From Nitrosopumilus sp. (GTDB lineage: Archaea > Thermoproteota > Nitrososphaeria > Nitrososphaerales > Nitrosopumilaceae), in assembly GCA_965206745.1 (NCBI GenBank), contig OZ242220.1, positions 576,001 through 640,000 of the forward strand: a stretch of 64,000 bases of DNA, read 5' to 3'. The notes beneath the pieces are model-generated. The model was given only the letters and a program-made list of their open reading frames with translations. It was not told the DNA's origin and made no database searches. The position numbers and the translations under genes are program-made. Shown here in pieces: positions 41,174 through 58,933 of the stretch. The stretch's first letter is position 1. Each line of letters starts with the position of its first letter.

Positions 41174-42016
41174 CTACTTTTCTATCTCCAGTGCATAGTC
41201 TAGCATTAGGGAGGGAATGTCCACGTTACACACCCTTACCGTGTTTTTGTATTCAGTAGTATTATTTACCTCGTGGACAACCAGTCCCTTCTCATCGCTT
41301 TCCATCAAATCCACGCCCACGATGTCCCCTTGAACTGCCTGCTTTGCCTTGATGCACATCTCCTCCATCTCCTCGGTGACTTTGCATGGTTCGGCTATCC
41401 CTCCGAGTGCCATGTTTGTCTTCCAGTGCTTGGAGGTTCTGTAGATTGCTGCTACTATCTTGTCTCCGACCATAATTGATCTGATGTCCCTTGGAGGCCT
41501 CTTTACAAACTCTTCCAAATAGTGAACCTGATAAATGGGATACATCTTTTCTCTGCTTTCGATGATTCCCTCTGCTGCATCCCTGTCATTTAGTTTTGAG
41601 ATAAGCCTTCCCCAACTGCCGACAGTTGGCTTGATGACTCTCGGATATCCGTGCAAGTCCAGCGACTCTAATGCCGCATCCTTTGAAAAAGCCACAGTCG
41701 CATCCGGCGTCGGCACTTTGAATTTCTTTAGCAGCATGTGTGTGAACAATTTGTTTCCGGCAAAGACTCCTGTGTTTAGGCAATTGATTACCCTGACGCC
41801 CAGTCCTTCAAGGGCCGCAGTTGAGTGCAGATTTCTATAATAGCTTACGCATCTCTGAATAACTATGCCGTAATCCTGCGGCTTTTTTTCCAAATCTATT
41901 GCCAGTTTCTTACAATCGAGCATCTGAATGTTGATGTTCTTTTTTTTACCTGCCTCTAGCAGAGCCTTTTCTTCCCAACGGATCGAATCGTAAAGAATGG
42001 TAACGTCGGGGTTCAC
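41174..42016 (-). CDS. lysX: Alpha-aminoadipate--LysW ligase LysX (ATP-grasp)
   Basis: KPTVGSWGR, RDIRS, WKTNMALGG, HEVNNTTEYKNT; GTG start overlaps the lysW stop (GTGA). Confidence 0.92.
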   Translation of the reverse strand: MNPDVTILYDSIRWEEKALLEAGKKKNINIQMLDCKKLAIDLEKKPQDYGIVIQRCVSYYRNLHSTAALEGLGVRVINCLNTGVFAGNKLFTHMLLKKFKVPTPDATVAFSKDAALESLDLHGYPRVIKPTVGSWGRLISKLNDRDAAEGIIESREKMYPIYQVHYLEEFVKRPPRDIRSIMVGDKIVAAIYRTSKHWKTNMALGGIAEPCKVTEEMEEMCIKAKQAVQGDIVGVDLMESDEKGLVVHEVNNTTEYKNTVRVCNVDIPSLMLDYALEIEK

Positions 42017-42180
42017 TGTCCCCAATCCTCGCCAACCGTTTGGGCTGGCTTTAGATCGAAGCCGTCTGAACCTTTAGCTAATTCAAAACTTGCGCCACAT
42101 TCAGGACATGTTACGATTTCCCCTTCAAGTGCATCACTTGGTACTGAAATATCTGCATCACATTCTTCACATTTTGACAT
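42013..42180 (-). CDS. lysW: Amino-group carrier protein LysW (55 aa; ends EDWGQ; not in ORF track)
   Basis: MSKCEECDADISVPSDALEGEIVTCPECGASFELAKGSDGFDLKPAQTVGEDWGQ; two CxxC; immediately upstream of lysX. Confidence 0.93.
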   Translation of the reverse strand: MSKCEECDADISVPSDALEGEIVTCPECGASFELAKGSDGFDLKPAQTVGEDWGQ

Positions 42181-42678
42181 GTCTCTTCTTCATTACGCCT
42201 TTATTTATCGTTAATTATCTTGTTGCCCCCTGCCGTGCATGTTTGGGATTGCCGGTAAACTCTTTGACTGGTGCTAGGCTGATTACTCATAATTCCGCTG
42301 ATGGGCAACTGCATGTGAAATCGGTTCCCGTCTTTGGGTTGCCCTGGTATTACTCATGGGCACTTGTGCCGGCAAGTTCGCAGTCTTGTGATTGCAGAAT
42401 CCGTCCCTTGCTCATATTCATAAATGCTGATTTCAAAGTGACTAACTTTGTGCCTTGTTTTGCCCTGAATGTGGTTTTGAGGGCTAAACGAGAATTGATA
42501 CTACTATGTGCATGCATGTCTGTCACTATTTCCACAGATGTAATGGGGGAATCATCTCTTTTTTTACTAGGCATGAATCAATACAATTGAGGATATTTTT
42601 TGTGTCTATTTTTTTTGAATATCTGTCTCTACCTGCAATTGTGTTAAATTGTTATATGTGATACTTGTTCTGTTTTTT

Positions 42679-45600
42679 ATGAACGGGACATGGGGCATTA
42701 TATCTGTAATCTGCCTCGGCCTCTCTTTTGGTGTTATTCCCGCATTTGCACAAACCGATAACCCTATAATATTTCCCACTGCTTTTTCAGAATCTGACAG
42801 AACAGGTCACACACCTGACATATTCGTATTTCAATTTTCTCGAGCTGATCCGAGTAATGGTGCATGGCAAATCAGGAGCGATACTGATGGTTGTAGAATA
42901 CTTCCCCGCGATATTCACCCTCAGTCTGGAGTGTTCACCTGGCAAATACCTCTTCTATCTGAACCCACAACATGTGAGGTAACAGTAAGTCGCACTGGCA
43001 ATGATCCCACATCAAGACAATTTGAGTTGCATATCTATCGAACTATTGTACTGCCACGTGTAGATATAACTGAAGGCCAAGTACCTCCCAGTCTTTCAAC
43101 TATTATACCAAATTCTAATGAAGGTGTGCCAGACTCTGTATCGAAATATGAAATTACTCGACCTTCTGGTATTCACATACAAAGAAATGAGCAAGTAGAT
43201 TTATTTGCAGAAATGCTAGCGTCTCTAGATGAAGAAACCGGTGATTTTTCACGATCACTTGCATGTGATGCGATAAGAGATGGTCACGAATTTGCAGATT
43301 TTGACTTTCTTTTGAGATTTGAAGATAGTACTGATGTGACCTTTGGACTTGGTCTGATGAGAATAAGCAATGCTGAAAACTGTAATCAGAGGCCTACTTT
43401 CAGTCCGGAGTATGACGCAGATATATTCGTAGGTGATACAATTCCTTCCCTTGCTGACACAGTTAACAACCCTGATCATCCCTCCGACCCCATATCGAGA
43501 TATCGCATCACAGATAGAGGTTCTGAACCAAGTTTGCCTGATTACATTGTAGAGTCTCTGGATCCGAATACTGGTGAATTTTCAGCACCGTTTCTGTGTG
43601 CTTCAATTGGTAGCGATGTTCAAAGAGAGTTTAGTTTTGATTGGACATTTGCAGATGGCACCGGCGAATATGCTCAACCTGGCATGATAAGAGTGACTAA
43701 TGGTGATGCATGCACATTTGATCGAGCATATGCAGTAGAGCTGCTCGAAGGCCAAATACCTCCTCCTTTATCTGACTCTATTCCAAACTTTGAAGATCCA
43801 CAAGACCCTGCAACGGAATACAGCATCGATCAAGGGAATCTTTCGAACCCTTTGCCTGATTACATTGTAGAGTCTCTGAACCCAACAACCGGTGAATTTA
43901 CAGCACCGTTTGCATGTGACACACTTCCAAATTCAGACGGCGGATCTACTTCCCGAGTGCCCTTCGACTGGACCTTTGAAAATAGTGATGTAGATTCGGG
44001 GACTCAGCTAGGTTCTATGACCGTATTAGAAGATCTAAATTGTAATGACATACCTACTTTTACTCAGTATAGCTCGACAGTATCAGAAGGTGTCGTACCT
44101 CTTTCTCTTTCCAGTGCAGTTATAAATCCTGATCTGGTTCAGGGAGATCCTGTATCGGTATACAGAATCAAATCTGGAGACCTGCCTCAAAGTTTCATTG
44201 ATTCCCTGAATGCCAATAGTGAATTTGCAGATCATGGTACATTTGACTCATTCTCGTTTGATACTGTATCTACTCAACAAGGTTCCAGGGTCTTTGAGTT
44301 TGTTTGGACCTTTGAGGACGGCACCGGGGAATCAGGAAACCAGAACGGCATACTAACTGTAAATAACATGAACCGAGCACCGACAATAGATGATCCTATT
44401 TCAAATTTCCCTTCGTTTCTTCGTACAAATGAACTAGTATCCTTTCCCCTGATGGGCATTGATCCTGACGATGATACCCTAATCTGGGATATCTCCTCAC
44501 CTGACCTCGGAGCTAGCATTGACCAAGACGGAATATTCTCATGGACTCCACTAGAACAGCATGTCGGTATGAATGAATTCACATTTACCCTGACTGACTC
44601 TGTTTTAACTGCTGTTCCTCGATCTCATACATTTGATGTACGTATACCGCCTACCATTGTTGAATATCGAGAGACAGTATCGGAGAATGGCCCCATTCCT
44701 TCCCTATCAAGCGTAGTTACAAACCCTGATGCGAATCTTGCCGACGCTCCATCGATATATCGCATCAAATCTGGAAACCTGCCTGAATCTATCATGAATT
44801 CTCTTGAAAACAATGGTCGATTTGACACCACGTTCCCATTTAATACCACAAATAATGCACAAAGTTCCAGAGTCTTTGAGTTTGTTTGGACCTTTGAGGG
44901 CAATACTGGGGAATCAGGGAACCAGAACGGCAAAATTACTGTAACCAACTTCAACCGGCCACCTACCATACAACCTCCAAGTAATAACTTTCGAGTACAT
45001 GATGTTGATCAACACATAACATTTAACCTGACAGGCCATGATCCTGATACTGATACTGGCACAGGTGATCCTCCACCAATATGGGACGTATCAGATAATT
45101 CCATCATTGACACTGGTGCAATAATTCATCAGAACGGCACATTCTCGTGGATTTCAGATTCAAGGTTTGATGGTGAGGATCCATTTAGGTTTACATTCAC
45201 TCTGACTGATGTTGGCAACAAACAAGCAGAGACATTTGTTACCGTTCGTATAACTACTGATCCAATCATTGCACCTGACGGTTCCTCAACTGAGACAGAA
45301 GGTAACCTAGTAAGCACTCAATTTGGAGAAGACGGCCCAGGCCCCAGAACCTGTACCACTGATTCCATACTGCCTGAAAGTCTCACACTTACAGTTACTA
45401 ATCGTAGTACTAAATGTATCCTAACTGGGACTCTAAGCCTTGATGCCATAACTAACGGTTTGACATCGCAGGAATTTCCAATAGTATACATAACAAACAC
45501 CACTGGCATCTTTGCTTCAGGTACACATACCCTGACAGTCAAGGAACTGCCTTTATTTGATTCCTACGAAGAGACAGTAGCAGAAGGTGATACTCTTCCA

Positions 45601-48600
45601 TCTTTGTATAGTACAGTTATAGATCCTGATCTGATTCCAGAAACTATCTCCGGATATACAGTCAGAGACGGCAACCTGCCTCCTTACATTACAGATCTTT
45701 TGAATCCTGTCACCGGCGAATTTGATGGCACCATTCCATTTGATGCTGTAACCTCTGCACAAGGTTTTGTAACCTTTGACTTTGATTGGATATTTACAGA
45801 TGGCATTGGATCATCAGGGATGCAGTCTGGTACCATAACTGTAACCAACACCAACCGGCCCCCGACAATCAATACAGGTCAAGATGATGTTGGTACAACA
45901 CGTGATGAGCACGAACTGGTAATGTTTACCCTGGATGGTTCTGATGATGATACTGCCACAGGCGATGATCCACCGATATGGCGCGTATCATCTGCTGACA
46001 CTGCCGCTAATGACAATGCAACGATTATGGACAATAGGGACTTTCGGTGGACTCCAGATGACAGTCACGGCAGCAGCACAATCACATTTACATTCACTCT
46101 GGATGATTCTGTAGCTGAGCCGGTCACTCGAAATATCAAATTTGATGTGCGAGAGGTAAACATACGGCCAACCCTGTCTGAACCATACTTTGTTAATGTC
46201 ACCGAGGGAGGTGAGATATCTCGTTCCCTCTCAGATGTGATTGTTGATCCCGACGAGATTCCGTCAACTATCATGATGTATGGACTAGCATCTGACCAAA
46301 CACTGCCTCTTGGCATAATGCTAAACTCTGATGGATCATTTTCAGGAACTGTATCACGTGATGCGACAACTGCTACAGACTCGCCACAAATTTATGAGTT
46401 CGACTATACATACGATGATGGTACAATCCCACCTTTCTCTAGTACCGGCATGATAAATGTGACCAACGCCAACCAACTACCCATAATAGATCCTATCACG
46501 GGCATCAACACAGAACCCCATGTGGGAGAGACAGTAGAGTATAACCTGAGAGGTACTGATCCTGACGATGATGTCACAATCTGGGGTATCTCCTCACCTG
46601 ACCTCGGGGCTACCATTGACCAAGACGGAATGTTCTCATGGACTCCACGTGAAGAGCATGCAAATATGCAAGTACTAACGTTCACCCTGACAGACTCTAT
46701 AGACCTGCCTGTCACAGCTCCTGTCACCTTTACAGTCAACCCAAATAATCTGCCGACATTTACCAGTTACACCCAAACAGTATCTGAAGGCCAAACACCT
46801 CTTTCTCTTTCCAGTGCAGTTACAAACCCTGAGGAGAGTTCACCAGACCCCGTATCCATATACGAAATCATACCCGGAGTCCTGCCTGACTCCATCATGA
46901 ATTCCCTATACCCAAACAACGGCTCGTTTGACAGTCCCGTCCCATTTGAAACACTGCCTGCCGGGACTGATTCCATGACCTACGAGTTCCAGTGGACATT
47001 TACAGACGGCACCGGACCATCAGGGAACCAGGACGGCACACTAACTGTAACCAACACCAACCGGCCCCCGACAATAGATCCTATCATCGGCATCAACACA
47101 GAGCCGCATGTGGGGGAGACAGTAGAGTATAACCTGAGAGGTACTGATCCTGACGATGATGTCACAATCTGGGGTATCTCCTCACCTGACCTCGGAGCTA
47201 CCATTGACCAAGACGGAATGTTCTCATGGACTCCACGTGAAGAGCATGCAAATATGCAAGTACTAACGTTCACCCTGACAGACTCTATAGACCTGCCTGT
47301 CACAGCTCCTGTCACCTTTACAGTCAACCCAAATAATCTGCCGACATTTACCAGTTACACCCAAACAGTATCTGAAGGCCAAACACCTCTTTCTCTTTCC
47401 AGTGCAGTTACAAACCCTGAGGAGAGTTCACCAGACCCCGTATCCATATACGAAATCATACCCGGAGTCCTGCCTGACTCCATCATGGGTTCCCTATACC
47501 CAAACAACGGCTCGTTTGACAGTCCCGTCCCATTTGAAACACTGCCTGCCGGGACTGATTCCATGACCTACGAGTTCCAGTGGACATTTACAGACGGCAC
47601 CGGACCATCAGGGAACCAGGACGGCACACTAACTGTAACCAACACCAACCGGCCCCCGACAATAGATCCTATCATCGGCATCAACACAGAGCCGCATGTG
47701 GGGGAGACGGTACTATTTGACCTGGAAGGCACTGATCCTGACGATGATGTCACAATCTGGGGTATCTCCTCACCTGACCTCGGAGCTACCATTGACCAAG
47801 ACGGAATGTTCTCATGGACTCCACGTGAAGAGCATGCAAATATGCAAGTACTAACGTTCACCCTGACAGACTCTATAGACCTGCCTGTCACAGCTCCTGT
47901 CACCTTTACAGTCAACCCAAATAATCTGCCGACATTTACCAGTTACACCCAAACAGTATCTGAAGGCCAAACACCTCTTTCTCTTTCCAGTGCAGTTACA
48001 AACCCTGAGGAGAGTTCACCAGACCCCGTATCCATATACGAAATCATACCCGGAGTCCTGCCTGACTCCATCATGGGTTCCCTATACCCAAACAACGGCT
48101 CGTTTGACAGTCCCGTCCCATTTGAAACACTGCCTGCCGGGACTGATTCCATGACCTACGAGTTCCAGTGGACATTTACAGACGGCACCGGACCATCAGG
48201 GAACCAGGACGGCACACTAACTGTAACCAACACCAACCGGCCCCCGACAATAGATCCTATCATCGGCATCAACACAGAGCCGCATGTGGGGGAGACGGTA
48301 CTATTTGACCTGGAAGGCACTGATCCTGACGATGATGTCACAATCTGGGGTATCTCCTCACCTGACCTCGGAGCTACCATTGACCAAGACGGAATGTTCT
48401 CATGGACTCCACGTGAAGAGCATGCAAATATGCAAGTACTAACGTTCACCCTGACAGACTCTATAGACCTGCCTGTCACAGCTCCTGTCACCTTTACAGT
48501 CAACCCAAATAATCTGCCGACATTTACCAGTTACACCCAAACAGTATCTGAAGGCCAAACACCTCTTTCTCTTTCCAGTGCAGTTACAAACCCTGAGGAG

Positions 48601-51600
48601 AGTTCACCAGACCCCGTATCCATATACGAAATCATACCCGGAGTCCTGCCTGACTCCATCATGGGTTCCCTATACCCAAACAACGGCTCGTTTGACAGTC
48701 CCGTCCCATTTGAAACACTGCCTGCCGGGACTGATTCCATGACCTACGAGTTCCAGTGGACATTTACAGACGGCACCGGACCATCAGGGAACCAGGACGG
48801 CACACTAACTGTAACCAACACCAACCGGCCCCCGACAATAGATCCTATCATCGGCATCAACACAGAGCCGCATGTGGGGGAGACGGTACTATTTGACCTG
48901 GAAGGCACTGATCCTGACGATGATGTCACAATCTGGGGTATCTCCTCACCTGACCTCGGAGCTACCATTGACCAAGACGGAATGTTCTCATGGACTCCAC
49001 GTGAAGAGCATGCAAATATGCAAGTACTAACGTTCACCCTGACAGACTCTATAGACCTGCCTGTCACAGCTCCTGTCACCTTTACAGTCAACCCAAATAA
49101 TCTGCCGACATTTACCAGTTACACCCAAACAGTATCTGAAGGCCAAACACCTCTTTCTCTTTCCAGTGCAGTTACAAACCCTGAGGAGAGTTCACCAGAC
49201 CCCGTATCCATATACGAAATCATACCCGGAGTCCTGCCTGACTCCATCATGGGTTCCCTATACCCAAACAACGGCTCGTTTGACAGTCCCGTCCCATTTG
49301 AAACACTGCCTGCCGGGACTGATTCCATGACCTACGAGTTCCAGTGGACATTTACAGACGGCACCGGACCATCAGGGAACCAGGACGGCACACTAACTGT
49401 AACCAACACCAACCGGCCCCCGACAATAGATCCTATCATCGGCATCAACACAGAGCCGCATGTGGGGGAGACGGTACTATTTGACCTGGAAGGCACTGAT
49501 CCTGACGATGATGTCACAATCTGGGGTATCTCCTCACCTGACCTCGGAGCTACCATTGACCAAGACGGAATGTTCTCATGGACTCCACGTGAAGAGCATG
49601 CAAATATGCAAGTACTAACGTTCACCCTGACAGACTCTATAGACCTGCCTGTCACAGCTCCTGTCACCTTTACAGTCAACCCAAATAATCTGCCGACATT
49701 TACCAGTTACACCCAAACAGTATCTGAAGGCCAAACACCTCTTTCTCTTTCCAGTGCAGTTACAAACCCTGAGGAGAGTTCACCAGACCCCGTATCCATA
49801 TACGAAATCATACCCGGAGTCCTGCCTGACTCCATCATGGGTTCCCTATACCCAAACAACGGCTCGTTTGACAGTCCCGTCCCATTTGAAACACTGCCTG
49901 CCGGGACTGATTCCATGACCTACGAGTTCCAGTGGACATTTACAGACGGCACCGGACCATCAGGGAACCAGGACGGCACACTAACTGTAACCAACACCAA
50001 CCGGCCCCCGACAATAGATCCTATCATCGGCATCAACACAGAGCCGCATGTGGGGGAGACGGTACTATTTGACCTGGAAGGCACTGATCCTGACGATGAT
50101 GTCACAATCTGGGGTATCTCCTCACCTGACCTCGGAGCTACCATTGACCAAGACGGAATGTTCTCATGGACTCCACGTGAAGAGCATGCAAATATGCAAG
50201 TACTAACGTTCACCCTGACAGACTCTATAGGCCCGCCTGTCACAGCTCCTGTCACCTTTACAGTCAACCCAAATAATCTGCCGACATTTACCAGTTACAC
50301 CCAAACAGTATCTGAAGGCCAAACACCTCTTTCTCTTTCCAGTGCAGTTACAAACCCTGAGGAGAGTTCACCAGACCCCGTATCCATATACGAAATCATA
50401 CCCGGAGTCCTGCCTGACTCCATCATGAATTCCCTATACCCAAACAACGGCTCGTTTGACAGTCCCGTCCCATTTGAAACACTGCCTGCCGGGACTGATT
50501 CCATGACCTACGAGTTCCAGTGGACATTTACAGACGGCACCGGACCATCAGGGAACCAGGACGGCACACTAACTGTAACCAACACCAACCGGCCCCCGAC
50601 AATAGATCCTATCATCGGCATCAACACAGAGCCGCATGTGGGGGAGACGGTACTATTTGACCTGGAAGGCACTGATCCTGACGATGATGTCACAATCTGG
50701 GGTATCTCCTCACCTGACCTCGGAGCTACCATTGACCAAGACGGAATGTTCTCATGGACTCCACGTGAAGAGCATGCAAATATGCAAGTACTAACGTTCA
50801 CCCTGACAGACTCTATAGACCTGCCTGTCACAGCTCCTGTCACCTTTACAGTCAACCCAAATAATCTGCCGACATTTACCAGTTACACCCAAACAGTATC
50901 TGAAGGCCAAACACCTCTTTCTCTTTCCAGTGCAGTTACAAACCCTGAGGAGAGTTCACCAGACCCCGTATCCATATACGAAATCATACCCGGAGTCCTG
51001 CCTGACTCCATCATGGGTTCCCTATACCCAAACAACGGCTCGTTTGACAGTCCCGTCCCATTTGAAACACTGCCTGCCGGGACTGATTCCATGACCTACG
51101 AGTTCCAGTGGACATTTACAGACGGCACCGGACCATCAGGGAACCAGGACGGCACACTAACTGTAACCAACACCAACCGGCCCCCGACAATAGATCCTAT
51201 CATCGGCATCAACACAGAGCCGCATGTGGGGGAGACGGTACTATTTGACCTGGAAGGCACTGATCCTGACGATGATGTCACAATCTGGGGTATCTCCTCA
51301 CCTGACCTCGGAGCTACCATTGACCAAGACGGAATGTTCTCATGGACTCCACGTGAAGAGCATGCAAATATGCAAGTACTAACGTTCACCCTGACAGACT
51401 CTATAGACCTGCCTGTCACAGCTCCTGTCACCTTTACAGTCAACCCAAATAATCTGCCGACATTTACCAGTTACACCCAAACAGTATCTGAAGGCCAAAC
51501 ACCTCTTTCTCTTTCCAGTGCAGTTACAAACCCTGAGGAGAGTTCACCAGACCCCGTATCCATATACGAAATCATACCCGGAGTCCTGCCTGACTCCATC

Positions 51601-54573
51601 ATGAATTCCCTATACCCAAACAACGGCTCGTTTGACAGTCCCGTCCCATTTGAAACACTGCCTGCCGGGACTGATTCCATGACCTACGAGTTCCAGTGGA
51701 CATTTACAGACGGCACCGGACCATCAGGGAACCAGGACGGCACACTAACTGTAACCAACACCAACCGGCCCCCGACAATAGATCCTATCATCGGCATCAA
51801 CACAGAACCCCATGTGGGAGAGACAGTAGAGTATAACCTGAGAGGTACTGATCCTGACGATGATGTCACAATCTGGGGTATCTCCTCACCTGACCTCGGA
51901 GCTACCATTGACCAAGACGGAATGTTCTCATGGACTCCACGTGAAGAGCATGCAAATATGCAAGTACTAACGTTCACCCTGACAGACTCTATAGACCTGC
52001 CTGTCACAGCTCCTGTCACCTTTACAGTCAACCCAAATAATCTGCCGACATTTACCAGTTACACCCAAACAGTATCTGAAGGCCAAACACCTCTTTCTCT
52101 TTCCAGTGCAGTTACAAACCCTGAGGAGAGTTCACCAGACCCCGTATCCATATACGAAATCATACCCGGAGTCCTGCCTGACTCCATCATGAATTCCCTA
52201 TACCCAAACAACGGCTCGTTTGACAGTCCCGTCCCATTTGAAACACTGCCTGCCGGGACTGATTCCATGACCTACGAGTTCCAGTGGACATTTACAGACG
52301 GCACCGGACCATCAGGGAACCAGGACGGCACACTAACTGTAACCAACCAGAATGTCTCTCCAATGATCAATCCCATTCAATCTTTCCCTTCAATCCTTCT
52401 CATAAATGAGCCAGTATCATTTGCCCTGAGAGGCACTGATCCTGACGGTGATGAAATAATGTGGAGCCTCTCACAACCTAGCCACGGAGCTCATATTACC
52501 CCAGAAGGAGACTTTTCATGGACTCCACGTGAAGAGCATTTAGGTATGCAAGAATTCACATTCACCCTGATTGACAGTCATGACGAACCGGCCATGGCTC
52601 TGACTCAAGCATTCAATGTAGTCGAGTTCAATCTGGTTCTGGCATCTGATTCAGAGTTTGAGTTCCCATCCGGCCAATCCACCGAGCATCTGCTGTTGCT
52701 TGCCGATACTGATTTAAACACAATGAATCTGGACTGGGAGATTCGCAGTGTTTTCCAGTCTGGCAGTATGGTTGATAATCCTGGAATAACACTCGAATCC
52801 GGCGATGTAACTGGTCTAAACGGGGAGGTATTGTACACAACTAACGGCTTTCTGACTTGGAATCCTTTACATGACCTAATCGGCGAATCATACCAGGTGC
52901 AAGTACGGGCAGCAGATGGAACATCTGACACTACACAGGTTGGGATTGTTGATGTTGTCGTTGTTGACAATATAGATCCCGTAATCACATTTGCCAATCT
53001 GCTAACTACTAGTGACTCTGCTGGAACCACAGCTGACTTTGTTGAAGCAAGTGACAACAACCCAAATGATGACTTTGTTGATGAGCCCACCGCCGATGAT
53101 CCAAACCCGGAACCTCGCCTTACATGTGTCAGAGACGATGACACTCCCATAGCAAACGGTGACTTGCTGGCAATTGACTCTCACACCATTACCTGTACTG
53201 CCATTGATCTGTCTGGAAATCAGGCCGAGCTTACCCAAACCGTCATAGTCGACTATGACGCAGACGCACTGTCTGCCATTGGCTCATATGCAGAAACTGT
53301 ACCAGAGGGATCATTCATTCCTCCCCTCTCAAGCGTGGTTACAGTCCCGTCCCGAGATCTGCCGGCCTCTGTATCCATATACCGAATCGAATCCGACGAG
53401 TTACCTGAAGATATCATATCTTCTCTGAATAACCAAACCGGTGCATTTTCAGCACAGTTTTCATGCAGTGCCGTACTTGCCGGGGAGGATCCCGTAACCT
53501 ATCCCTTCACCTTTACATTTGAGGATGACATTACAAAATCAGACCCGCAGGATGGAACAATAACGGTATCCCACAATCCGAGATGCGGCCTTGGCAGTGG
53601 CAGCTCAAATGACTGGAAGAAAAAGCCGACCTTTGGCATGTCATGGGAGGTATCCTCTGATCAGCTAGTCGATGACGGCTTTACCTTCAACGGCTACACC
53701 CTGGACATCACTGACAACTGGCACACTGATTTTACAAGGACATCATCGATAATCGGTGAGATAAACAGTGTGACTATGAAGGCATATGCCGCTGACGGAT
53801 TCAGGTATGTCGTCTTGTCCCTTGGAGTGCCCGAGATTGGCATGGCCCCTGATGCAGAGACTGACATCATACTGATGCTGAATCGAAACTATACCAATCC
53901 GGACGACTATGATATCGTGGAGATAATTCACGAGCAAAAAGAGTCCCTGATCGACGAGAGCAGGACTACTGCCACAGTCAAAAGGGTGCTGTGCAATGCA
54001 GACTCTGAAACCCCGTGCCACTCCTTTGAGATATCCTTCAAGGTTGATGCGCCACTAAAGTCCGACGTGCTGGCAATATCTGCAGTCGATTCGAAGCGAC
54101 GCAGCACCGTAACGTTCATCAACGAGGGCGTAGAGTTTACAGGAGATGCAATACTTGCGCCAAACACGCACTATATGATACAGAAAAAGACAAACCAGGG
54201 ACCTGCAGAGATAATCACACTGACCCAGCAGGACAGGAGATACAACATCTGGGAGGATGACTCTGGATACCTGTGGTTCCAAAATGATCACGGCAGCTGG
54301 TTCTCAATTACCGCACCAGAGACTGAGCGATTCACAGACGGTGCTGTCCATGTGATGACCAGACTGCACTCAAACTTTGGAAACCTGATGCAGCACGAGC
54401 GGGAGAAGGCCGCCCTGGTATTTGATGCAAGCAAGCTGATCTCGGTGCCTGACCAGTCCTTTAGCCATGACTATTCCGATGTCCAGTATGGCGTTACAAA
54501 GTTTGAAAAACTGGCAGATGAACTGCACATAGAGCAGGGCAAGGCGCAGAGAATAATGGAACTGTTAAGATAG
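42679..54573 (+). CDS. Giant secreted/surface protein (~3,960 aa) of Ig/cadherin-like domains, with an HYR-like domain and a distinct C-terminal domain
   Basis: Signal peptide ending PAFA-Q; repeated NRPP...DPDDD...G.FSWTP...FTLTD modules; HYR-like DNIDPVI...TITCTAIDLSGN; ORF uninterrupted for ~11.9 kb. Confidence 0.92.
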   Translation: MNGTWGIISVICLGLSFGVIPAFAQTDNPIIFPTAFSESDRTGHTPDIFVFQFSRADPSNGAWQIRSDTDGCRILPRDIHPQSGVFTWQIPLLSEPTTCEVTVSRTGNDPTSRQFELHIYRTIVLPRVDITEGQVPPSLSTIIPNSNEGVPDSVSKYEITRPSGIHIQRNEQVDLFAEMLASLDEETGDFSRSLACDAIRDGHEFADFDFLLRFEDSTDVTFGLGLMRISNAENCNQRPTFSPEYDADIFVGDTIPSLADTVNNPDHPSDPISRYRITDRGSEPSLPDYIVESLDPNTGEFSAPFLCASIGSDVQREFSFDWTFADGTGEYAQPGMIRVTNGDACTFDRAYAVELLEGQIPPPLSDSIPNFEDPQDPATEYSIDQGNLSNPLPDYIVESLNPTTGEFTAPFACDTLPNSDGGSTSRVPFDWTFENSDVDSGTQLGSMTVLEDLNCNDIPTFTQYSSTVSEGVVPLSLSSAVINPDLVQGDPVSVYRIKSGDLPQSFIDSLNANSEFADHGTFDSFSFDTVSTQQGSRVFEFVWTFEDGTGESGNQNGILTVNNMNRAPTIDDPISNFPSFLRTNELVSFPLMGIDPDDDTLIWDISSPDLGASIDQDGIFSWTPLEQHVGMNEFTFTLTDSVLTAVPRSHTFDVRIPPTIVEYRETVSENGPIPSLSSVVTNPDANLADAPSIYRIKSGNLPESIMNSLENNGRFDTTFPFNTTNNAQSSRVFEFVWTFEGNTGESGNQNGKITVTNFNRPPTIQPPSNNFRVHDVDQHITFNLTGHDPDTDTGTGDPPPIWDVSDNSIIDTGAIIHQNGTFSWISDSRFDGEDPFRFTFTLTDVGNKQAETFVTVRITTDPIIAPDGSSTETEGNLVSTQFGEDGPGPRTCTTDSILPESLTLTVTNRSTKCILTGTLSLDAITNGLTSQEFPIVYITNTTGIFASGTHTLTVKELPLFDSYEETVAEGDTLPSLYSTVIDPDLIPETISGYTVRDGNLPPYITDLLNPVTGEFDGTIPFDAVTSAQGFVTFDFDWIFTDGIGSSGMQSGTITVTNTNRPPTINTGQDDVGTTRDEHELVMFTLDGSDDDTATGDDPPIWRVSSADTAANDNATIMDNRDFRWTPDDSHGSSTITFTFTLDDSVAEPVTRNIKFDVREVNIRPTLSEPYFVNVTEGGEISRSLSDVIVDPDEIPSTIMMYGLASDQTLPLGIMLNSDGSFSGTVSRDATTATDSPQIYEFDYTYDDGTIPPFSSTGMINVTNANQLPIIDPITGINTEPHVGETVEYNLRGTDPDDDVTIWGISSPDLGATIDQDGMFSWTPREEHANMQVLTFTLTDSIDLPVTAPVTFTVNPNNLPTFTSYTQTVSEGQTPLSLSSAVTNPEESSPDPVSIYEIIPGVLPDSIMNSLYPNNGSFDSPVPFETLPAGTDSMTYEFQWTFTDGTGPSGNQDGTLTVTNTNRPPTIDPIIGINTEPHVGETVEYNLRGTDPDDDVTIWGISSPDLGATIDQDGMFSWTPREEHANMQVLTFTLTDSIDLPVTAPVTFTVNPNNLPTFTSYTQTVSEGQTPLSLSSAVTNPEESSPDPVSIYEIIPGVLPDSIMGSLYPNNGSFDSPVPFETLPAGTDSMTYEFQWTFTDGTGPSGNQDGTLTVTNTNRPPTIDPIIGINTEPHVGETVLFDLEGTDPDDDVTIWGISSPDLGATIDQDGMFSWTPREEHANMQVLTFTLTDSIDLPVTAPVTFTVNPNNLPTFTSYTQTVSEGQTPLSLSSAVTNPEESSPDPVSIYEIIPGVLPDSIMGSLYPNNGSFDSPVPFETLPAGTDSMTYEFQWTFTDGTGPSGNQDGTLTVTNTNRPPTIDPIIGINTEPHVGETVLFDLEGTDPDDDVTIWGISSPDLGATIDQDGMFSWTPREEHANMQVLTFTLTDSIDLPVTAPVTFTVNPNNLPTFTSYTQTVSEGQTPLSLSSAVTNPEESSPDPVSIYEIIPGVLPDSIMGSLYPNNGSFDSPVPFETLPAGTDSMTYEFQWTFTDGTGPSGNQDGTLTVTNTNRPPTIDPIIGINTEPHVGETVLFDLEGTDPDDDVTIWGISSPDLGATIDQDGMFSWTPREEHANMQVLTFTLTDSIDLPVTAPVTFTVNPNNLPTFTSYTQTVSEGQTPLSLSSAVTNPEESSPDPVSIYEIIPGVLPDSIMGSLYPNNGSFDSPVPFETLPAGTDSMTYEFQWTFTDGTGPSGNQDGTLTVTNTNRPPTIDPIIGINTEPHVGETVLFDLEGTDPDDDVTIWGISSPDLGATIDQDGMFSWTPREEHANMQVLTFTLTDSIDLPVTAPVTFTVNPNNLPTFTSYTQTVSEGQTPLSLSSAVTNPEESSPDPVSIYEIIPGVLPDSIMGSLYPNNGSFDSPVPFETLPAGTDSMTYEFQWTFTDGTGPSGNQDGTLTVTNTNRPPTIDPIIGINTEPHVGETVLFDLEGTDPDDDVTIWGISSPDLGATIDQDGMFSWTPREEHANMQVLTFTLTDSIGPPVTAPVTFTVNPNNLPTFTSYTQTVSEGQTPLSLSSAVTNPEESSPDPVSIYEIIPGVLPDSIMNSLYPNNGSFDSPVPFETLPAGTDSMTYEFQWTFTDGTGPSGNQDGTLTVTNTNRPPTIDPIIGINTEPHVGETVLFDLEGTDPDDDVTIWGISSPDLGATIDQDGMFSWTPREEHANMQVLTFTLTDSIDLPVTAPVTFTVNPNNLPTFTSYTQTVSEGQTPLSLSSAVTNPEESSPDPVSIYEIIPGVLPDSIMGSLYPNNGSFDSPVPFETLPAGTDSMTYEFQWTFTDGTGPSGNQDGTLTVTNTNRPPTIDPIIGINTEPHVGETVLFDLEGTDPDDDVTIWGISSPDLGATIDQDGMFSWTPREEHANMQVLTFTLTDSIDLPVTAPVTFTVNPNNLPTFTSYTQTVSEGQTPLSLSSAVTNPEESSPDPVSIYEIIPGVLPDSIMNSLYPNNGSFDSPVPFETLPAGTDSMTYEFQWTFTDGTGPSGNQDGTLTVTNTNRPPTIDPIIGINTEPHVGETVEYNLRGTDPDDDVTIWGISSPDLGATIDQDGMFSWTPREEHANMQVLTFTLTDSIDLPVTAPVTFTVNPNNLPTFTSYTQTVSEGQTPLSLSSAVTNPEESSPDPVSIYEIIPGVLPDSIMNSLYPNNGSFDSPVPFETLPAGTDSMTYEFQWTFTDGTGPSGNQDGTLTVTNQNVSPMINPIQSFPSILLINEPVSFALRGTDPDGDEIMWSLSQPSHGAHITPEGDFSWTPREEHLGMQEFTFTLIDSHDEPAMALTQAFNVVEFNLVLASDSEFEFPSGQSTEHLLLLADTDLNTMNLDWEIRSVFQSGSMVDNPGITLESGDVTGLNGEVLYTTNGFLTWNPLHDLIGESYQVQVRAADGTSDTTQVGIVDVVVVDNIDPVITFANLLTTSDSAGTTADFVEASDNNPNDDFVDEPTADDPNPEPRLTCVRDDDTPIANGDLLAIDSHTITCTAIDLSGNQAELTQTVIVDYDADALSAIGSYAETVPEGSFIPPLSSVVTVPSRDLPASVSIYRIESDELPEDIISSLNNQTGAFSAQFSCSAVLAGEDPVTYPFTFTFEDDITKSDPQDGTITVSHNPRCGLGSGSSNDWKKKPTFGMSWEVSSDQLVDDGFTFNGYTLDITDNWHTDFTRTSSIIGEINSVTMKAYAADGFRYVVLSLGVPEIGMAPDAETDIILMLNRNYTNPDDYDIVEIIHEQKESLIDESRTTATVKRVLCNADSETPCHSFEISFKVDAPLKSDVLAISAVDSKRRSTVTFINEGVEFTGDAILAPNTHYMIQKKTNQGPAEIITLTQQDRRYNIWEDDSGYLWFQNDHGSWFSITAPETERFTDGAVHVMTRLHSNFGNLMQHEREKAALVFDASKLISVPDQSFSHDYSDVQYGVTKFEKLADELHIEQGKAQRIMELLR
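46462..52345 (+). repeat. Ten tandem near-identical 588-bp (196-aa) repeats inside the giant gene
   Basis: Antisense shadow ORFs recur exactly every 588 nt (46767, 47355 ... 52059); copies differ at only a few sites. Confidence 0.97.
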
Positions 54574-54835
54574 TTTTAATTCTGCCGGCTCGGGGTTTTG
54601 TAATGTTTGGGACTGGGTAATTTCAGCGCCAAAGGGTAATCTTGATTTTATGCAAAGGCAGCCTTGCCAAAGTCATCTGGCAAAACCATGAAACTGACAC
54701 ATTCTGTGGACTACAGTCTAGTGCACAGTAGTATGTCTCCATGACATGCCTTGATTCAAGAACCAAGCCGTCCCTTGATTGCAGAGGATGCATTCGCTGG
54801 ATAAACCATCTGTCATAAATTTAGAATAAAAAAAA

Positions 54836-55231
54836 TTAACATAAAGACATTAGTTCGTCTTTAAGATTTTGGTCGTAAGAGTTAGCCTCACCAGCATCGT
54901 CTGTGCATGTGTACACGATGTATGATTCCTTGCTCTCTTTGTTGTAATCAATCTTCAGTGTAGCATCGTCTGCCATCAACCAGTACTCATAGTCTAGTCC
55001 CAGATTGTGTAACTCTTCGGTATATTCCGGATGCTTTTGGATGAACATCTGGCTCTCCTCATAGTCTAGGAACATGGTCTTTGTTTGATCCGCATTTGCG
55101 TCTTCCATATTCAACTCTGTGATGTCATCAGCCATGGAGACAAACGGAGTAATTATTAGCGCTCCGACCCCTCCTATTGTGACTGCGATGATAACTACTA
55201 CTGCAATTATGACCTTGTAGATCGTCTTCAT
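54836..55231 (-). CDS. Hypothetical membrane-anchored acidic protein
   Basis: ATG at 55231 (MKTIYKVIIAVVVIIAV...) gives an N-terminal TM plus acidic domain with two Cys. Confidence 0.7.
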   Translation of the reverse strand: MKTIYKVIIAVVVIIAVTIGGVGALIITPFVSMADDITELNMEDANADQTKTMFLDYEESQMFIQKHPEYTEELHNLGLDYEYWLMADDATLKIDYNKESKESYIVYTCTDDAGEANSYDQNLKDELMSLC

Positions 55232-55357
55232 TATCCCTCGTCTAAGTGGCTTCAATATTAGTGTGTAAGATGTGGTATTTTTGATGCATTTGTAAAGCAT
55301 GTCGTTTTTTTGAGATTTGAAAAAATGTTTTTATAATGATTAAAAATCAACACACTC

Positions 55358-55558
55358 ATGGAACGCTCAGCTTGGTGGTTTTTGCTGCCATTGGTTTTAG
55401 GTGTGCTGGGCTCTGTAATTGCATACTCTCAGATACGCAAAGATGATCCGGATATGGTAAAATGGATATGGGTAACAGGCGCTGTCATGACTATCGCGCT
55501 GGCATTAACTAGTATATCCCCCGAACTTGTAGTGCCAGAACCATTTATGGATTTGTAG
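55358..55558 (+). CDS. Small two-TM membrane protein
   Basis: RSAWWFLLPLVLGVLGSVIAY...KDDPDM pattern; TTTTATAA TATA upstream. Confidence 0.7.
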   Translation: MERSAWWFLLPLVLGVLGSVIAYSQIRKDDPDMVKWIWVTGAVMTIALALTSISPELVVPEPFMDL

Positions 55559-55863
55559 GGGAAGACTCACACGGTACAACTCATGTTTGCCCAAAAGATA
55601 TCTTGGAATACCAGAGTTATGTGAGGAATCACAATCTTTTTTTAGAATTTTAATCTGACCTTGAGCAGGACCCAAAAGTCTAGTGTTCCCATTTACCGAA
55701 ACTCACTTTGTGGATTCAAGCATTGCCTGGACATGTCTGATATGGTTGGGAATCTAGACTGTGAAATTATACTGTGTACTTGGAGATTCTTCCATTTGAT
55801 GCATTCTATGAATTTTGGGAAAATGTTTCCATACTAATATACCTGAGATCCTCAAACCATCTA

Positions 55864-56559
55864 ATGGCCATACATTACAAGCATGTGATGCTCTGCTCTG
55901 TTATTTTGCTCTCTGTCATGCCGTTGATTGTGCCTGCCGCATTTGGTCATGGTGGTAATCCCGGTGTCGATAGGGCGCCACCGATTAACTTTGAAGACAA
56001 AAATGTAACTGTCAAGGCAAAAATGAATCCGTCAGATATGACCGTTGGGGATTTTACCAATACGTTTTTGGAGTTGCAGTTTGTTGATGTTATCACCGAA
56101 GTCCATCCGACACGGATCTCAGGAATGAACTGTACGGATATTGAGATGGACGGGATGTTTGAGTGCAGCAGGGATGTGCCGTTTTCCCAAGTGACATACC
56201 TGGTTGGCATTAGCAAACGGGGTGACCTTTTGGCAAGGGAGTCGTTTTATGCCGAAGATGGCATCCTGACTGTTGACATTAGGCCAAAAAATACCTGTGA
56301 TGAGGAACCGGTATACAAATGCAGCAATACCTACGGCGTAAAGCATCCCATTGCTGGAGGCTTGCATGCATTTGGGCAGAACAATCCTGTAATTGACGGC
56401 CCGATATTTACAAAGGGCGGCCTGTATCATATTGAGGTGGAGATTATTGGTGCCGGCAGTGTCAGGTCCAACCTGCTAGACCCCCTGGAGTTTGATTTGT
56501 ACGTCTCCATTGCAGAAGAGTTTACATTTTACGTTGATTACCCTGCAGGCAATACGTGA
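55864..56559 (+). CDS. Secreted protein resembling the N-terminal part of thaumarchaeal exported proteins; no C-terminal anchor
   Basis: Signal peptide ...VPAAFG-HG; DRAPPI, PSDMTVG, LLARESFY..DG.L.V, GPIFTKGGLY. Confidence 0.7.
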   Translation: MAIHYKHVMLCSVILLSVMPLIVPAAFGHGGNPGVDRAPPINFEDKNVTVKAKMNPSDMTVGDFTNTFLELQFVDVITEVHPTRISGMNCTDIEMDGMFECSRDVPFSQVTYLVGISKRGDLLARESFYAEDGILTVDIRPKNTCDEEPVYKCSNTYGVKHPIAGGLHAFGQNNPVIDGPIFTKGGLYHIEVEIIGAGSVRSNLLDPLEFDLYVSIAEEFTFYVDYPAGNT

Positions 56560-56784
56560 GTGCTAGTTTTGTTGTGCAGGCCTCAATCTTTTTTATTAGA
56601 ATATGATCCGTCAACTTTATGACCTGCGTTCTGACATGGACTGTCTACTGGAAGAACATCATAGATGAGGTTATTGGGATAATTTGGTAAGTGGTTTTAT
56701 ACATATTTTTAGTGAAAATTTTTTAATGTTCTGATTTACATCGATCTACATATAAATTATTATTATTTTTCAGAAACACTTAGC

Positions 56785-58523: not shown

Positions 58524-58933
58524 TTGTTTTGTATGAATAATATCATTTTAGATCGAATATTTCATTCCATTCTCTTTTAGATTGTTTTTCTGAATTATAT
58601 TGGAGATGCATTTATCTCAAACACTTCCTTGGTGTTTGTTGCATCAATGTGTGATGAAAAATGCAATATTTCTTTATTATTGTACTCTATGAATTTATAC
58701 ATACCATGATCTATTAGATAAAAAATCTATTTGAGTTCATGAGATTGTCTTGATGCCGACAATGAATCATCCTATTTCAAATGGAAGATTTTTTTGAATC
58801 CGAATAGGATTCATATTTAGTGTTCAACCTTCACCAATTTTACAGTATCCATCTACTTGGAAAATGTTTGATTAAAATTCCAACAACACATCCAAATCCG
58901 CCCCTCCGATGCCAGAACCTGCTGGAACCTGAT

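What the first reader, a model, noticed from the sequence alone, without database searches (positions are those of the whole stretch)
42013..42180. LysW carrier ends in EDWGQ, not EDWGE: a possible Pup-like glutamine-terminated amino-group carrier
Seen: the lysW coupled to lysX ends ...GGC GAG GAT TGG GGA CAG TGA (GEDWGQ*). Established: LysX ligates alpha-aminoadipate to the gamma-carboxyl of the C-terminal Glu of LysW (EDWGE), and Gln has no free gamma-carboxyl. The GTG start of lysX overlaps this stop, but GAG TGA would keep that overlap, so the overlap does not force Gln. Inference: the carrier may need deamidation first (as Pup-GGQ does by Dop), LysX may use different chemistry, or this paralogue may be regulatory/inactive while an EDWGE LysW near argX (outside the window) serves both pathways. 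A deamidation step would be an undescribed control point on lysine versus arginine flux.
Basis: partly seen in the sequence, partly recalled or inferred. Interest (0 to 1): 0.7.

Follow-up and report, generated by a model that had tools for sequence, protein, structure and literature searches.

The report
Glutamine-ended LysW lysine carrier protein
The small carrier protein that this ammonia-oxidising archaeon needs to make lysine is encoded with a terminal glutamine where the known chemistry requires a glutamate, and this is conserved among its relatives, so an undescribed uncapping or attachment step must exist.

Summary
Observation confirmed. Window 42013-42180 (-) encodes a 55-aa LysW ending GEDWGQ*, followed by lysX and lysK. 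It is not an error: no variant at the codon in contigs of 4 runs, and 46 of 46 lysX-linked copies in the same family end in Gln.

In 143 LysW loci across the class, the last residue is only Glu (75) or Gln (68). Gln (CAA and CAG) occurs only in the four amoA-bearing families. It flipped at least 8 times, with no matching change in the ligase. Some relatives have only Gln-ended carriers and no dapA. The "inactive paralogue" reading is therefore refuted for them.

This genome has no dapA or lysA, one LysK, and a second LysW (EDWGE) beside an ArgX-type ligase just past the window end.

Best explanation (about 0.5): a pro-carrier uncapped to Glu by a pathway enzyme, most simply LysK, in a Pup/Dop-like way. 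Unproven. Rivals are alpha-carboxyl ligation and direct amide use by LysX.

Bacteria also have EEDWGQ carriers, in operons with an N-terminal-Cys amidohydrolase instead of LysK. That enzyme also sits in Glu-type operons, and no homologue turned up in the ammonia-oxidiser genomes searched.

This scan noted the same trait earlier on other DNA. No paper found mentions it.

The parts
42013..42180 (-). lysW(Q): 55-aa zinc-ribbon amino-group carrier protein ending GEDWGQ*
   Evidence: NF041070 at 89 bits (cut-off 75) and PF21344. One search aligns it with the EDWGE chains 3vpb_E, 3wwl_A and 5k2m_E.
42016..42018 (-). terminal Gln codon CAG, the odd feature. Its last base is the first base of the GTG start of lysX.
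   Evidence: No variant in contigs of 4 runs. 46 of 46 CAG in family f1. CAA and CAG both occur in family f3.
41174..42016 (-). lysX: ATP-grasp LysW ligase of the LysX (alpha-aminoadipate) type. GSWGR motif present; specificity motif I-I-M-NT.
   Evidence: TIGR02144 at 324.4 bits, cut-off 275.6. for the motif positions, read against Table 1 of PMC12998189.
40043..41170 (-). lysK: M20 metallohydrolase ([LysW]-lysine/ornithine hydrolase). It is the only copy in the genome and the only amide hydrolase in the cluster.
   Evidence: TIGR01902 at 282.7 bits, cut-off 163.1; NF003367 at 277.5 bits, below its cut-off of 363. (single tblastn hit). (5xoy_A at 186.6 bits).
42181..58933 (.). About 16.7 kb of inserted accessory DNA, including a 3974-aa repetitive protein at 42649-54573 (+). 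It splits the lysine/arginine supercluster. In relatives the two lysW genes lie about 5.8-6 kb apart.
   Evidence: Spacing of the two hits (for example G016, G044, G143).
58934..60103 (-). homocitrate/isopropylmalate synthase family gene, the likely first enzyme of the alpha-aminoadipate route
   Evidence: TIGR02146 at 367.9 bits, below its cut-off of 413.55, so the assignment is tentative.
60221..60640 (-). lysM-type transcriptional regulator
   Evidence: NF040947 at 187.8 bits, cut-off 180.
60627..61814 (-). lysJ/argD-type aminotransferase
   Evidence: TIGR00707 at 430.3 bits, cut-off 410.05.
61801..62604 (-). lysZ: [LysW]-aminoadipate/[LysW]-glutamate kinase
   Evidence: NF010662 at 298.2 bits, cut-off 194.
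62607..63653 (-). lysY/argC-type reductase
   Evidence: TIGR01850 at 418.9 bits, cut-off 233.6.
63681..64000 (-). 3' part of the second ligase (ArgX type, motif I-M-I-GL), cut by the window end. Its own carrier LysW(E), ending EDWGE, and argG follow just outside the window (window-equivalent 64538-64705 and beyond).

Best explanation
lysW(Q) is the working lysine-pathway carrier of this ammonia-oxidising archaeon. It is translated as a capped pro-carrier. The terminal Gln is isosteric with the Glu whose gamma-carboxyl carries alpha-aminoadipate in the characterised systems.

Before or at first use, the gamma-amide is removed to give LysW-Glu. After that the carrier cycles as in Thermus, Sulfolobus and Thermococcus: LysX loads alpha-aminoadipate, LysZ, LysY and LysJ modify it, and LysK releases lysine and regenerates LysW-Glu.

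The uncapping enzyme is most economically one that already handles LysW gamma-glutamyl amides. My first choice is LysK, since LysW-Gln is LysW-gamma-Glu-NH2, the smallest analogue of its substrate. This mirrors Dop, which both depupylates and deamidates Pup-GGQ.

Shown here: the Gln is real, conserved and under selection, and Gln-ended carriers must be functional in relatives. Inferred: that deamidation occurs, and which enzyme does it.
For: 1. Only Glu or Gln ever occupies the last position.
- 75 E and 68 Q in 143 loci.
- 114 Q and 1 E among 120 clusters; of the other five, four are gene calls that read on past the stop and one runs on after EDWGP.
- 87 E and 31 Q among 120 bacterial clusters; the other two end in unrelated sequence.
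This fits a requirement for a gamma-carbonyl.

2. Q and E interchanged repeatedly. The ligase tree needs at least 6 changes among LysX-linked rows and 2 among ArgX-linked rows. No ligase column tracks the state. No LysK residue is fixed in the amoA-bearing clade and different from a residue conserved in at least 80% of its relatives.

3. Gln-ended carriers must work.
- G120 and G170 have one LysW, ending in Q, and two ligases.
- G183, G278 and G156 have two LysW, both ending in Q.
- dapA was not found in any of the five.
- The window's own genome lacks dapA and lysA at 99.6% completeness.

4. This genome has one LysK, and the lysZ, lysY and lysJ genes sit only in the ArgX-side cluster. I did not search for paralogues of those three. 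If they are shared, one enzyme set must process adducts of both the E-carrier and the Q-carrier, which argues for one linkage chemistry.

5. Gln spread to the ArgX-linked carrier in family f3 (8 of 9) and to a sole shared carrier. That is easier to explain if uncapping does not depend on the ligase.

6. Selection acts on the amino acid.
- Both CAA and CAG are used, before TGA, TAA or TAG.
- In family f1 the first base of the codon shows 0 changes, against 4-8 at neighbouring synonymous sites.

7. Bacterial EEDWGQ carriers sit in operons whose hydrolase is a class-II glutamine-amidotransferase/EgtC-like enzyme with an N-terminal Cys. Glutamine-amide and gamma-glutamyl-amide hydrolysis is that family's chemistry; this last point is from my recall of the family.
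Against: - No experiment or mass-spectrometry datum was seen. The chemistry is inferred.
- I recall no example of an M20 enzyme hydrolysing a primary side-chain amide.
- 0 of 39 LysW in the non-amoA families of the class end in Q, although the 18 such genomes searched all have a LysK homologue. A generic LysK side activity is therefore not obviously enough. Something else in the ammonia-oxidiser clade may permit or favour Gln.
- If Gln were only a one-time cap, the strict maintenance of Q on the lysine carrier and of E on the arginine carrier in family f1 (46 of 46 and 19 of 19) needs a selective reason, and I cannot give one.
- The bacterial amidohydrolase has no homologue in this genome. It also has none in 135 other genomes of the amoA-bearing families.
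Confidence: 0.5

Rival explanations
1. Alpha-carboxyl ligation. LysX, like its relative RimK, activates the free alpha-carboxylate of the terminal Gln and joins alpha-aminoadipate by an ordinary peptide bond. The Gln side chain is kept, and LysK later acts as a carboxypeptidase.
For: - LysX belongs to the RimK family of alpha-L-glutamate ligases (TIGR00768 at 277.3 bits).
- No extra enzyme is needed, which fits the unchanged gene content around Q and E variants.
- It would explain why Gln is kept by long-term selection rather than acting as a transient cap.
Against: - Only E or Q is tolerated at the last position.
- E and Q variants alternate among close relatives with no ligase change.
- There is one LysK, and lysZ, lysY and lysJ were seen only in the ArgX-side cluster, so the same enzymes would have to accept two tether geometries that differ by two carbons and one charge.
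- All characterised systems are gamma-linked (passages of PMC10433800).
Confidence: 0.2
2. Direct amide use by the ligase. LysX or ArgX, with ADP and phosphate, converts the Gln amide to the gamma-glutamyl-phosphate intermediate, releasing ammonia. It then transfers the acyl group to the substrate amine. This resembles the gamma-glutamyl-transferase reaction of glutamine synthetase or the phosphorolytic mechanism proposed for Dop.
For: - The ligase is the one enzyme common to archaeal operons (M20 LysK) and bacterial operons (N-terminal-Cys hydrolase) that hold Gln-ended carriers.
- No extra gene is needed.
Against: - I recall no example of this for an ATP-grasp ligase.
- It would have to hold for both LysX-type and ArgX-type ligases in family f3 and in the sole-carrier genomes.
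- No ligase residue tracks Q or E.
Confidence: 0.12
3. An unlinked amidase or glutaminase encoded elsewhere in ammonia-oxidiser genomes uncaps LysW-Gln.
For: - Within the class, Gln termini are confined to the amoA-bearing families: amoA in 22 of 22 sampled genomes of f1, f2, f3 and f5, and in 0 of 29 elsewhere; Q only in the former. This fits a factor gained at the base of that clade.
Against: - No candidate was found. The cluster holds no such gene.
- The only GATase_4-like hits in the genome lie inside ORFs of 588 and 493 aa, which I take to be housekeeping amidotransferases without having checked.
Confidence: 0.12
4. Inactive, decoy or purely regulatory paralogue, or a sequencing error.
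For: This genome does carry a second, canonical EDWGE LysW.
Against: - Relatives have only Gln-ended carriers and no dapA.
- The Gln copy is the one coupled to the only LysX-type ligase and to LysK.
- Q is conserved in 46 of 46 loci of family f1.
- No variant appears in the laid contigs.
Confidence: 0.03

Closest known systems
LysW/ArgW amino-group carrier proteins of Thermus thermophilus, Sulfurisphaera tokodaii/Sulfolobus acidocaldarius and Thermococcus kodakarensis (PDB 3wwl, 3vpb chain E, 5k2m chain E)
   Same: - Same fold family (NF041070, PF21344) and same length.
- Four-Cys zinc ribbon and an acidic tail ending ...EDWG-x.
- Same neighbours: an ATP-grasp ligase with the GSWGR motif, the M20 hydrolase LysK, and LysZ, LysY and LysJ.
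   Different: The last residue is Gln, not the Glu whose gamma-carboxyl carries the substrate in every characterised member (passages of PMC10433800). There are two dedicated carrier-ligase pairs, LysX type and ArgX type, instead of one shared carrier.
Pup (GGQ) with Dop and PafA of actinobacteria (recalled, not from any call)
   Same: It may work alike. In both, a small protein is ligated through the side-chain carboxyl of a C-terminal Glu, is encoded as Gln in some lineages and as Glu in others, and would need deamidation first. The enzyme that removes the tag, Dop, is also the deamidase, which is the role I propose for LysK.
   Different: There is no sequence or fold relationship. LysW is a zinc ribbon, the ligase is an ATP-grasp enzyme and the hydrolase is an M20 enzyme. 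I did not search for a Dop or PafA homologue. The ligation partner is a free amino acid, not a protein lysine.
Bacterial HCS-lysW-lysX-lysY-[N-terminal-Cys class-II GATase/EgtC-like]-lysZ-lysJ operons (Ignavibacteria, Gammaproteobacteria, Acidobacteriota and others; seen here in loci L156-L235 and L275-L284)
   Same: The carriers end in EEDWGE or EEDWGQ, interchangeably among close relatives: 31 Q and 87 E of 120 clusters, and 3 Q and 7 E of 10 genomes.
   Different: - The release hydrolase there is an N-terminal-Cys amidohydrolase, not LysK. No M20 protein passes the TIGR01902 cut-off in 5 such genomes.
- That hydrolase was not found in this genome or in 135 other genomes of the amoA-bearing families.
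RimK (ribosomal protein S6 alpha-L-glutamate ligase)
   Same: LysX is a RimK-family ATP-grasp enzyme. RimK ligates to an alpha-carboxylate at a protein C-terminus, which is the model for the rival chemistry.
   Different: RimK adds Glu processively to S6. Nothing here shows alpha-linkage.

Membership tests
LysW/ArgW amino-group carrier protein (NF041070, PF21344) | Score above the curated cut-off of the family model | tested here: met
   NF041070 at 89 bits against a cut-off of 75. PF21344 at 47.7 bits against 27.
LysW/ArgW amino-group carrier protein (NF041070, PF21344) | Zinc-ribbon globular domain with two CxxC pairs | tested here: met
   CEEC at residues 4-7 and CPEC at residues 25-28. One search gives the alignment to the solved chains.
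LysW/ArgW amino-group carrier protein (NF041070, PF21344) | C-terminal EDWGE motif whose last Glu carries the substrate | tested here: not met
   EDWGQ. The motif definition comes from passages of PMC10433800.
LysW/ArgW amino-group carrier protein (NF041070, PF21344) | Encoded beside a LysX/ArgX ligase that carries the GSWGR motif | tested here: met
   the lysX start overlaps the lysW stop, and GSWGR is visible in the alignment.
LysW/ArgW amino-group carrier protein (NF041070, PF21344) | Covalent loading of alpha-aminoadipate or glutamate on the terminal residue | not testable with these tools
   Needs mass spectrometry or an enzyme assay.
LysX, alpha-aminoadipate-LysW ligase (TIGR02144) | Score above the cut-off, and a LysX-type five-residue specificity motif (F-I-T-NS in T. 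thermophilus) | tested here: inconclusive
   324.4 bits against 275.6, so the score is met. The motif is I-I-M-NT. It shares I192 and the polar N-S/T pair with the LysX type, and differs at positions 182 and 203. The second ligase is I-M-I-GL, close to the ArgX type I-Y-V-GF (Table 1 of PMC12998189).
LysK, [LysW]-lysine hydrolase (NF003367; subfamily TIGR01902) | Score above the cut-off | tested here: inconclusive
   the subfamily TIGR01902 scores 282.7 bits against 163.1 (met). The equivalog NF003367 scores 277.5 against 363 (not met). The best solved relative is T. thermophilus LysK, 5xoy, at 186.6 bits.
Pup-like modifier with Dop-type deamidase | Homology to Pup, and presence of Dop or PafA homologues | not tested
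   Pfam gives only zinc-ribbon families for the protein. I did not search the genome for Dop or PafA. The resemblance is functional and recalled.

The most novel reading that the evidence does not exclude
The Gln is not a cap that is simply hydrolysed but part of a different loading chemistry. One form is that the ATP-grasp ligase turns the side-chain amide itself into the acyl donor, making the first loading a transamidation that releases ammonia. The other is that it ligates the alpha-carboxylate, so that ammonia oxidisers build lysine on a carrier-substrate linkage nobody has described. Either would be a new reaction for the LysX/RimK family, in some of the most abundant microbes on Earth.
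Probability: 0.3. Interest if true: 0.88.

Novelty: new variant of a known kind. Interest (0 to 1): 0.7.

Why it matters
LysW-mediated lysine and arginine synthesis is a textbook case of a protein used as an amino-protecting group. Every description rests on the gamma-carboxyl of a terminal Glu.

Here the only lysine route has a carrier that cannot do that chemistry as translated. This holds for this genome and, by the survey, for the whole family of marine ammonia oxidisers sampled. In several soil relatives the arginine carrier or the sole carrier is the same. So a step is missing from the pathway map of a globally abundant group, and from metabolic models of it such as the one in PMC6038301 (passages).

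The question is now directly testable: a 55-residue protein, two or three recombinant enzymes and a mass spectrometer. The parallel with Pup-GGQ and Dop raises a wider possibility. Encoding a ligatable Glu as Gln may be a recurrent way to make a conjugation-competent protein depend on its own recycling enzyme.

Tried and rejected
**Sequencing error.** Rejected.

**Overlap with the lysX start forces Gln.** Rejected. GAG TGA occurs in relatives with the same overlap (G195, G346, G245, G191 and others). Gln also occurs as CAA or CAG before TAA or TAG without overlap.

**Inactive paralogue.** Rejected for relatives that have only Q carriers.

**A ligase adapted to Gln.** I looked for alignment columns that track Q or E and found none. 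The best score was 0.73, with overlapping residue sets.

**An ammonia-oxidiser-specific LysK.** I compared 13 sequences from amoA-bearing genomes with 18 from other genomes. No column was fixed in the first set and different from a residue conserved in at least 80% of the second.

**The bacterial amidohydrolase as the archaeal uncapping enzyme.**
- The best tblastn hit in this genome had E = 0.14.
- A profile of 25 sequences gave E = 0.43 at best over 8670 ORFs.
- None of 135 other genomes of families f1, f2, f3 and f5 matched at E <= 0.001.

Not upheld in the one class tested. 7 of 7 Glu-type operons and 2 of 2 sufficiently covered Gln-type operons have it; the third Gln locus, L282, shows no gene past lysY.

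**Ligase typing by similarity.** Similarity to solved ArgX or LysX did not separate the two ligases, since both are closest to T. thermophilus LysX. The five-residue motif did separate them.

**lysA in family f3.** There is a hit below the cut-off (235-255 bits against 297.9). For those genomes I therefore rely on the absence of dapA only.

**RNA.** No RNA holder was listed for the stretch. This says nothing about expression.

**Literature searches.**
- 'EDWGQ': 0 papers.
- LysW with Nitrosopumilus: 4 papers. I read passages of two, and neither mentions the terminus.
- LysW with 'deamid': 1 paper, unrelated by its title and not read.
-, with min_terms 2, returned papers without LysW and was uninformative.
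- Searches were further searches.

I did not ask for supplements. Proteomic tables of ammonia oxidisers, which I could not see, might hold the C-terminal peptide.

Complex prediction, structure prediction and fold search were not used.

**Unpublished genomes.** G230, G282, G132, G326 and G364 enter only the tallies, and possibly those. No locus or residue count rests on them.
Full report
**The observation**

The minus-strand ORF at 42013-42180 encodes a 55-residue protein with two CxxC pairs and the tail ...PAQTVGEDWGQ, followed by TGA. It passes the curated cut-off of the archaeal LysW/ArgW model (NF041070, 89 bits against 75) and hits the LysW zinc-ribbon Pfam family. HMMER aligns it end to end with the three solved carriers. 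These are 3vpb chain E, 3wwl and 5k2m chain E. All three end EDWGE, so the Gln sits exactly where the substrate-bearing Glu is.

lysX follows, with a GTG start that shares one base with the Gln codon and two with the stop (TIGR02144, 324 bits). Next comes an M20 hydrolase of the LysK/ArgE subfamily (TIGR01902, 283 bits), and then diphthine synthase.

**Is it real?**

Contigs of four public runs from four studies cover the codon and show no other letter at 42016-42018. Co-occurring strains in one run differ at many nearby sites. These are contigs, not raw reads, and one run may be the assembly's own source.

Conservation is the stronger evidence:
- 112 of the best 120 protein clusters end EDWGQ and two more end xDWGQ. 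One, P0019, ends EDWGE. Four are gene calls that read on past the stop, and one runs on after EDWGP.
- In a survey of the class, 380 of 401 genomes had a LysW hit. I fetched 143 LysW loci from representative genomes and read their ends.

**The genome context**

The genome is 99.6% complete and carries archaeal amoA, so it is an ammonia oxidiser. I found no dapA and no lysA. The alpha-aminoadipate/LysW route therefore looks like its only way to lysine.

It has two LysW genes, two ligases and one LysK. The second LysW ends EDWGE and lies about 540 bases past the window end. Its neighbours are argG upstream and a second ligase downstream.

Downstream of that ligase, inside the window, come these genes:
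- lysY
- lysZ
- lysJ
- a LysM-type regulator
- a homocitrate-synthase-like gene

In relatives the two lysW genes are about 6 kb apart. Here about 16.7 kb of accessory DNA, with a 3974-residue repetitive protein, has been inserted between the synthase gene and lysW(Q).

**Which ligase is which?**

Overall similarity does not tell, because both are nearest to T. thermophilus LysX. A published five-residue specificity motif does (PMC12998189, section 6 and Table 1). The types are LysX F-I-T-NS, ArgX I-Y-V-GF and bifunctional Y-I-T-NA.

I counted positions on the printed alignments to T. thermophilus LysX and then on a MAFFT alignment of all ligases.
- The window's ligase reads I-I-M-NT, which is LysX-like, with the polar N-T pair.
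- The other ligase reads I-M-I-GL, which is ArgX-like.

On a tree of 116 ligases the N-type rows form one supported group (SH-aLRT 97). One G-type row (L110) sits inside that group, and one N-type row on a long branch (L111) sits outside it.

**Distribution**

| Group | LysX-linked carriers | ArgX-linked carriers |
|---|---|---|
| f1 (own family) | 46 of 46 Q (46 genomes, 18 genera) | 19 of 19 E |
| f3 | 11 Q, 2 E | 8 Q, 1 E |
| f2 | 1 Q, 2 E | 4 E |
| f5 | 1 Q, 3 E | 4 E |
| All other families of the class | 10 E | 27 E |

Four carriers had no ligase found beside them. Two are in the other families and end in E, which makes 39 of 39 E there. Two are in f1. One of those, in G070, ends in Q, so G070 has two Q copies.

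In f3 several genomes have Gln on both carriers. All 15 genomes of genus g27 show a single LysW match. I read the end in two of them, and both are Q.

amoA was found in 22 of 22 sampled genomes of f1, f2, f3 and f5, and in 0 of 29 of the other families. Within this class, then, Gln termini are confined to the ammonia-oxidiser clade. That clade is one lineage, so the link may be historical rather than functional. Five sampled ammonia oxidisers have only Glu termini.

**Functionality**

I checked five genomes at 98% completeness or better with the family model. G120 and G170 have exactly one LysW above the cut-off, ending in Gln, and two ligases. G183, G278 and G156 have exactly two LysW, both ending in Gln. 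None has dapA. They do have a decarboxylase below the lysA cut-off, so I rely on dapA alone.

A Gln-ended LysW must therefore work as a carrier. This disposes of the 'inactive paralogue' option as a general explanation.

**Selection**

Gln is written CAG or CAA, before TGA, TAA or TAG, with and without overlap of the ligase start. In family f1 the first base of the last codon never changes over 22 tree rows. Third positions of the neighbouring Gly, Asp, Gly and Val codons need 4 to 8 changes on the same tree. The arginine carrier keeps its G in the same way. In f3 the constraint is looser, with 2 changes.

Across the ligase tree the terminal state needs at least 6 changes among LysX-linked rows and 2 among ArgX-linked rows.

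**What goes with the flips?**

I could detect nothing:
- No ligase column tracks Q or E.
- LysK has no position fixed in the 13 ammonia-oxidiser sequences and different from a residue conserved in at least 80% of the 18 others. H72, D74, D96, E126, E127, E150 and H341 are invariant throughout. That these are the M20 metal and catalytic residues is my recall, not a tool result.

**Beyond the class**

This form of the motif excludes the archaeal GEDWGQ. By the CxxC...CxxC test, 70 of the 80 loci are true LysW genes. They come from Gammaproteobacteria, Acidobacteriota, Ignavibacteria, Calditrichia, Gemmatimonadota, a Methanosarcinales archaeon and others.

Their usual operon is (synthase)-lysW-lysX-lysY-[about 211 aa]-lysZ-lysJ. 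The extra gene turned up in 25 loci. It starts M-C-R and gives weak hits to class-II glutamine amidotransferase domains and to EgtC. Five such genomes have no M20 protein above the LysK-subfamily cut-off (best 95.6 bits against 163.1). This hydrolase therefore probably replaces LysK there.

I tested this in the class of one such genome. Ten of 151 genomes have LysW, seven with Glu ends and three with Gln ends. The hydrolase gene sits in all seven Glu operons and in both Gln operons that are covered far enough. Among the 120 nearest protein clusters, 87 end in E and 31 in Q.

So in bacteria too, Gln and Glu alternate in an unchanged operon. The hydrolase is the general release enzyme rather than a Gln-specific addition. 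It is missing from this genome. None of the 135 other genomes searched in families f1, f2, f3 and f5 has it either.

**Weighing the mechanisms**

Several facts point to the canonical gamma-linkage after the amide is removed:
- Only Glu or Gln is ever seen at the end.
- The flips are easy and leave no trace in the ligase.
- Gln has spread to ArgX-linked and shared carriers.
- There is a single LysK, and the lysZ, lysY and lysJ genes sit only on the ArgX side. I did not search for paralogues of those three.

The uncapping enzyme is likely one that both pathways share. LysK is the only amide hydrolase in the cluster, and LysW-Gln is the ammonia analogue of its substrate. This is the Pup/Dop logic.

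Three things count against it:
- There is no precedent I know of for an M20 enzyme acting on a primary amide.
- Gln is absent from non-amoA relatives that have LysK.
- The strict Q-versus-E split between the two carriers in family f1 has no explanation, and a one-time cap does not provide one.

That last point keeps the rival chemistries alive: alpha-carboxyl ligation in the RimK manner, or direct use of the amide by the ligase. My odds are about 0.5 for uncapping to Glu, with LysK the single most likely agent at roughly 0.25-0.3. The alpha-ligation rival gets 0.2, direct amide use 0.12, an unlinked amidase 0.12, and an inactive copy or error 0.03.

**Novelty**

No paper in the held library contains 'EDWGQ'. 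The papers I read describe the terminal Glu as crucial (PMC10433800 passages; PMC12998189 section 6). A metabolic model of N. maritimus simply assumes the Sulfolobus chemistry (PMC6038301 passages). The original LysW papers (Horie 2009, Ouchi 2013, Yoshida 2016) and the Pup/Dop work are recalled, not seen.

This scan has noted the same trait before on other DNA: 14 notes in at least 11 genomes. I used those notes as leads and tested three of them. It is a new variant of a known system. The locus is an ordinary member of a widespread but undescribed class.

Noticed in passing
window 42181-58933: About 16.7 kb of accessory DNA splits the lysine/arginine supercluster. It holds a 3974-aa protein (42649-54573, +) made of near-identical repeats, two unassigned ORFs, and an AAA ATPase (56785-58050) with a weak match to the defence protein MAD3 (63.8 bits, cut-off 420).
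   Followed up: partly
window 39006-40043 (-): The diphthine synthase (TIGR00522) carries a C-terminal DUF357 domain and directly follows lysK on the same strand.
   Followed up: no
loci L156-L235 and L275-L284: Bacterial lysine operons (synthase-lysW-lysX-lysY-X-lysZ-lysJ) carry an N-terminal-Cys, EgtC/class-II-GATase-like protein of about 211 aa where LysK would be expected. It is present with both Glu-ended and Gln-ended carriers, and is probably an unrecognised release enzyme of the pathway.
   Followed up: partly
L140 (G070) and L116 (G157): Two exceptions within the window's own family. G070 has a second carrier that also ends in Gln. G157 has a third LysW copy (EDWGE) with no ligase beside it.
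   Followed up: no
ligase alignment: LysX-type ligases of the amoA-bearing families read I-I-M/T-N-T/V at the five specificity positions. Those of the deeper families read F-I-T-N-T/S, as in T. thermophilus. One non-amoA genome (G382, Glu-ended carrier) also reads I-I-M-N-T.
   Followed up: partly
L153, L154 (G120, G170): In the single-carrier soil genomes the ArgX-type ligase sits about 5 kb upstream of the sole lysW(Q), with no carrier gene of its own.
   Followed up: partly
protein clusters P0006, P0011, P0027, P0034: Some public gene calls read through the lysW TGA stop as Trp, giving false C-terminal extensions. This is an artefact of a gene caller using another genetic code.
   Followed up: no
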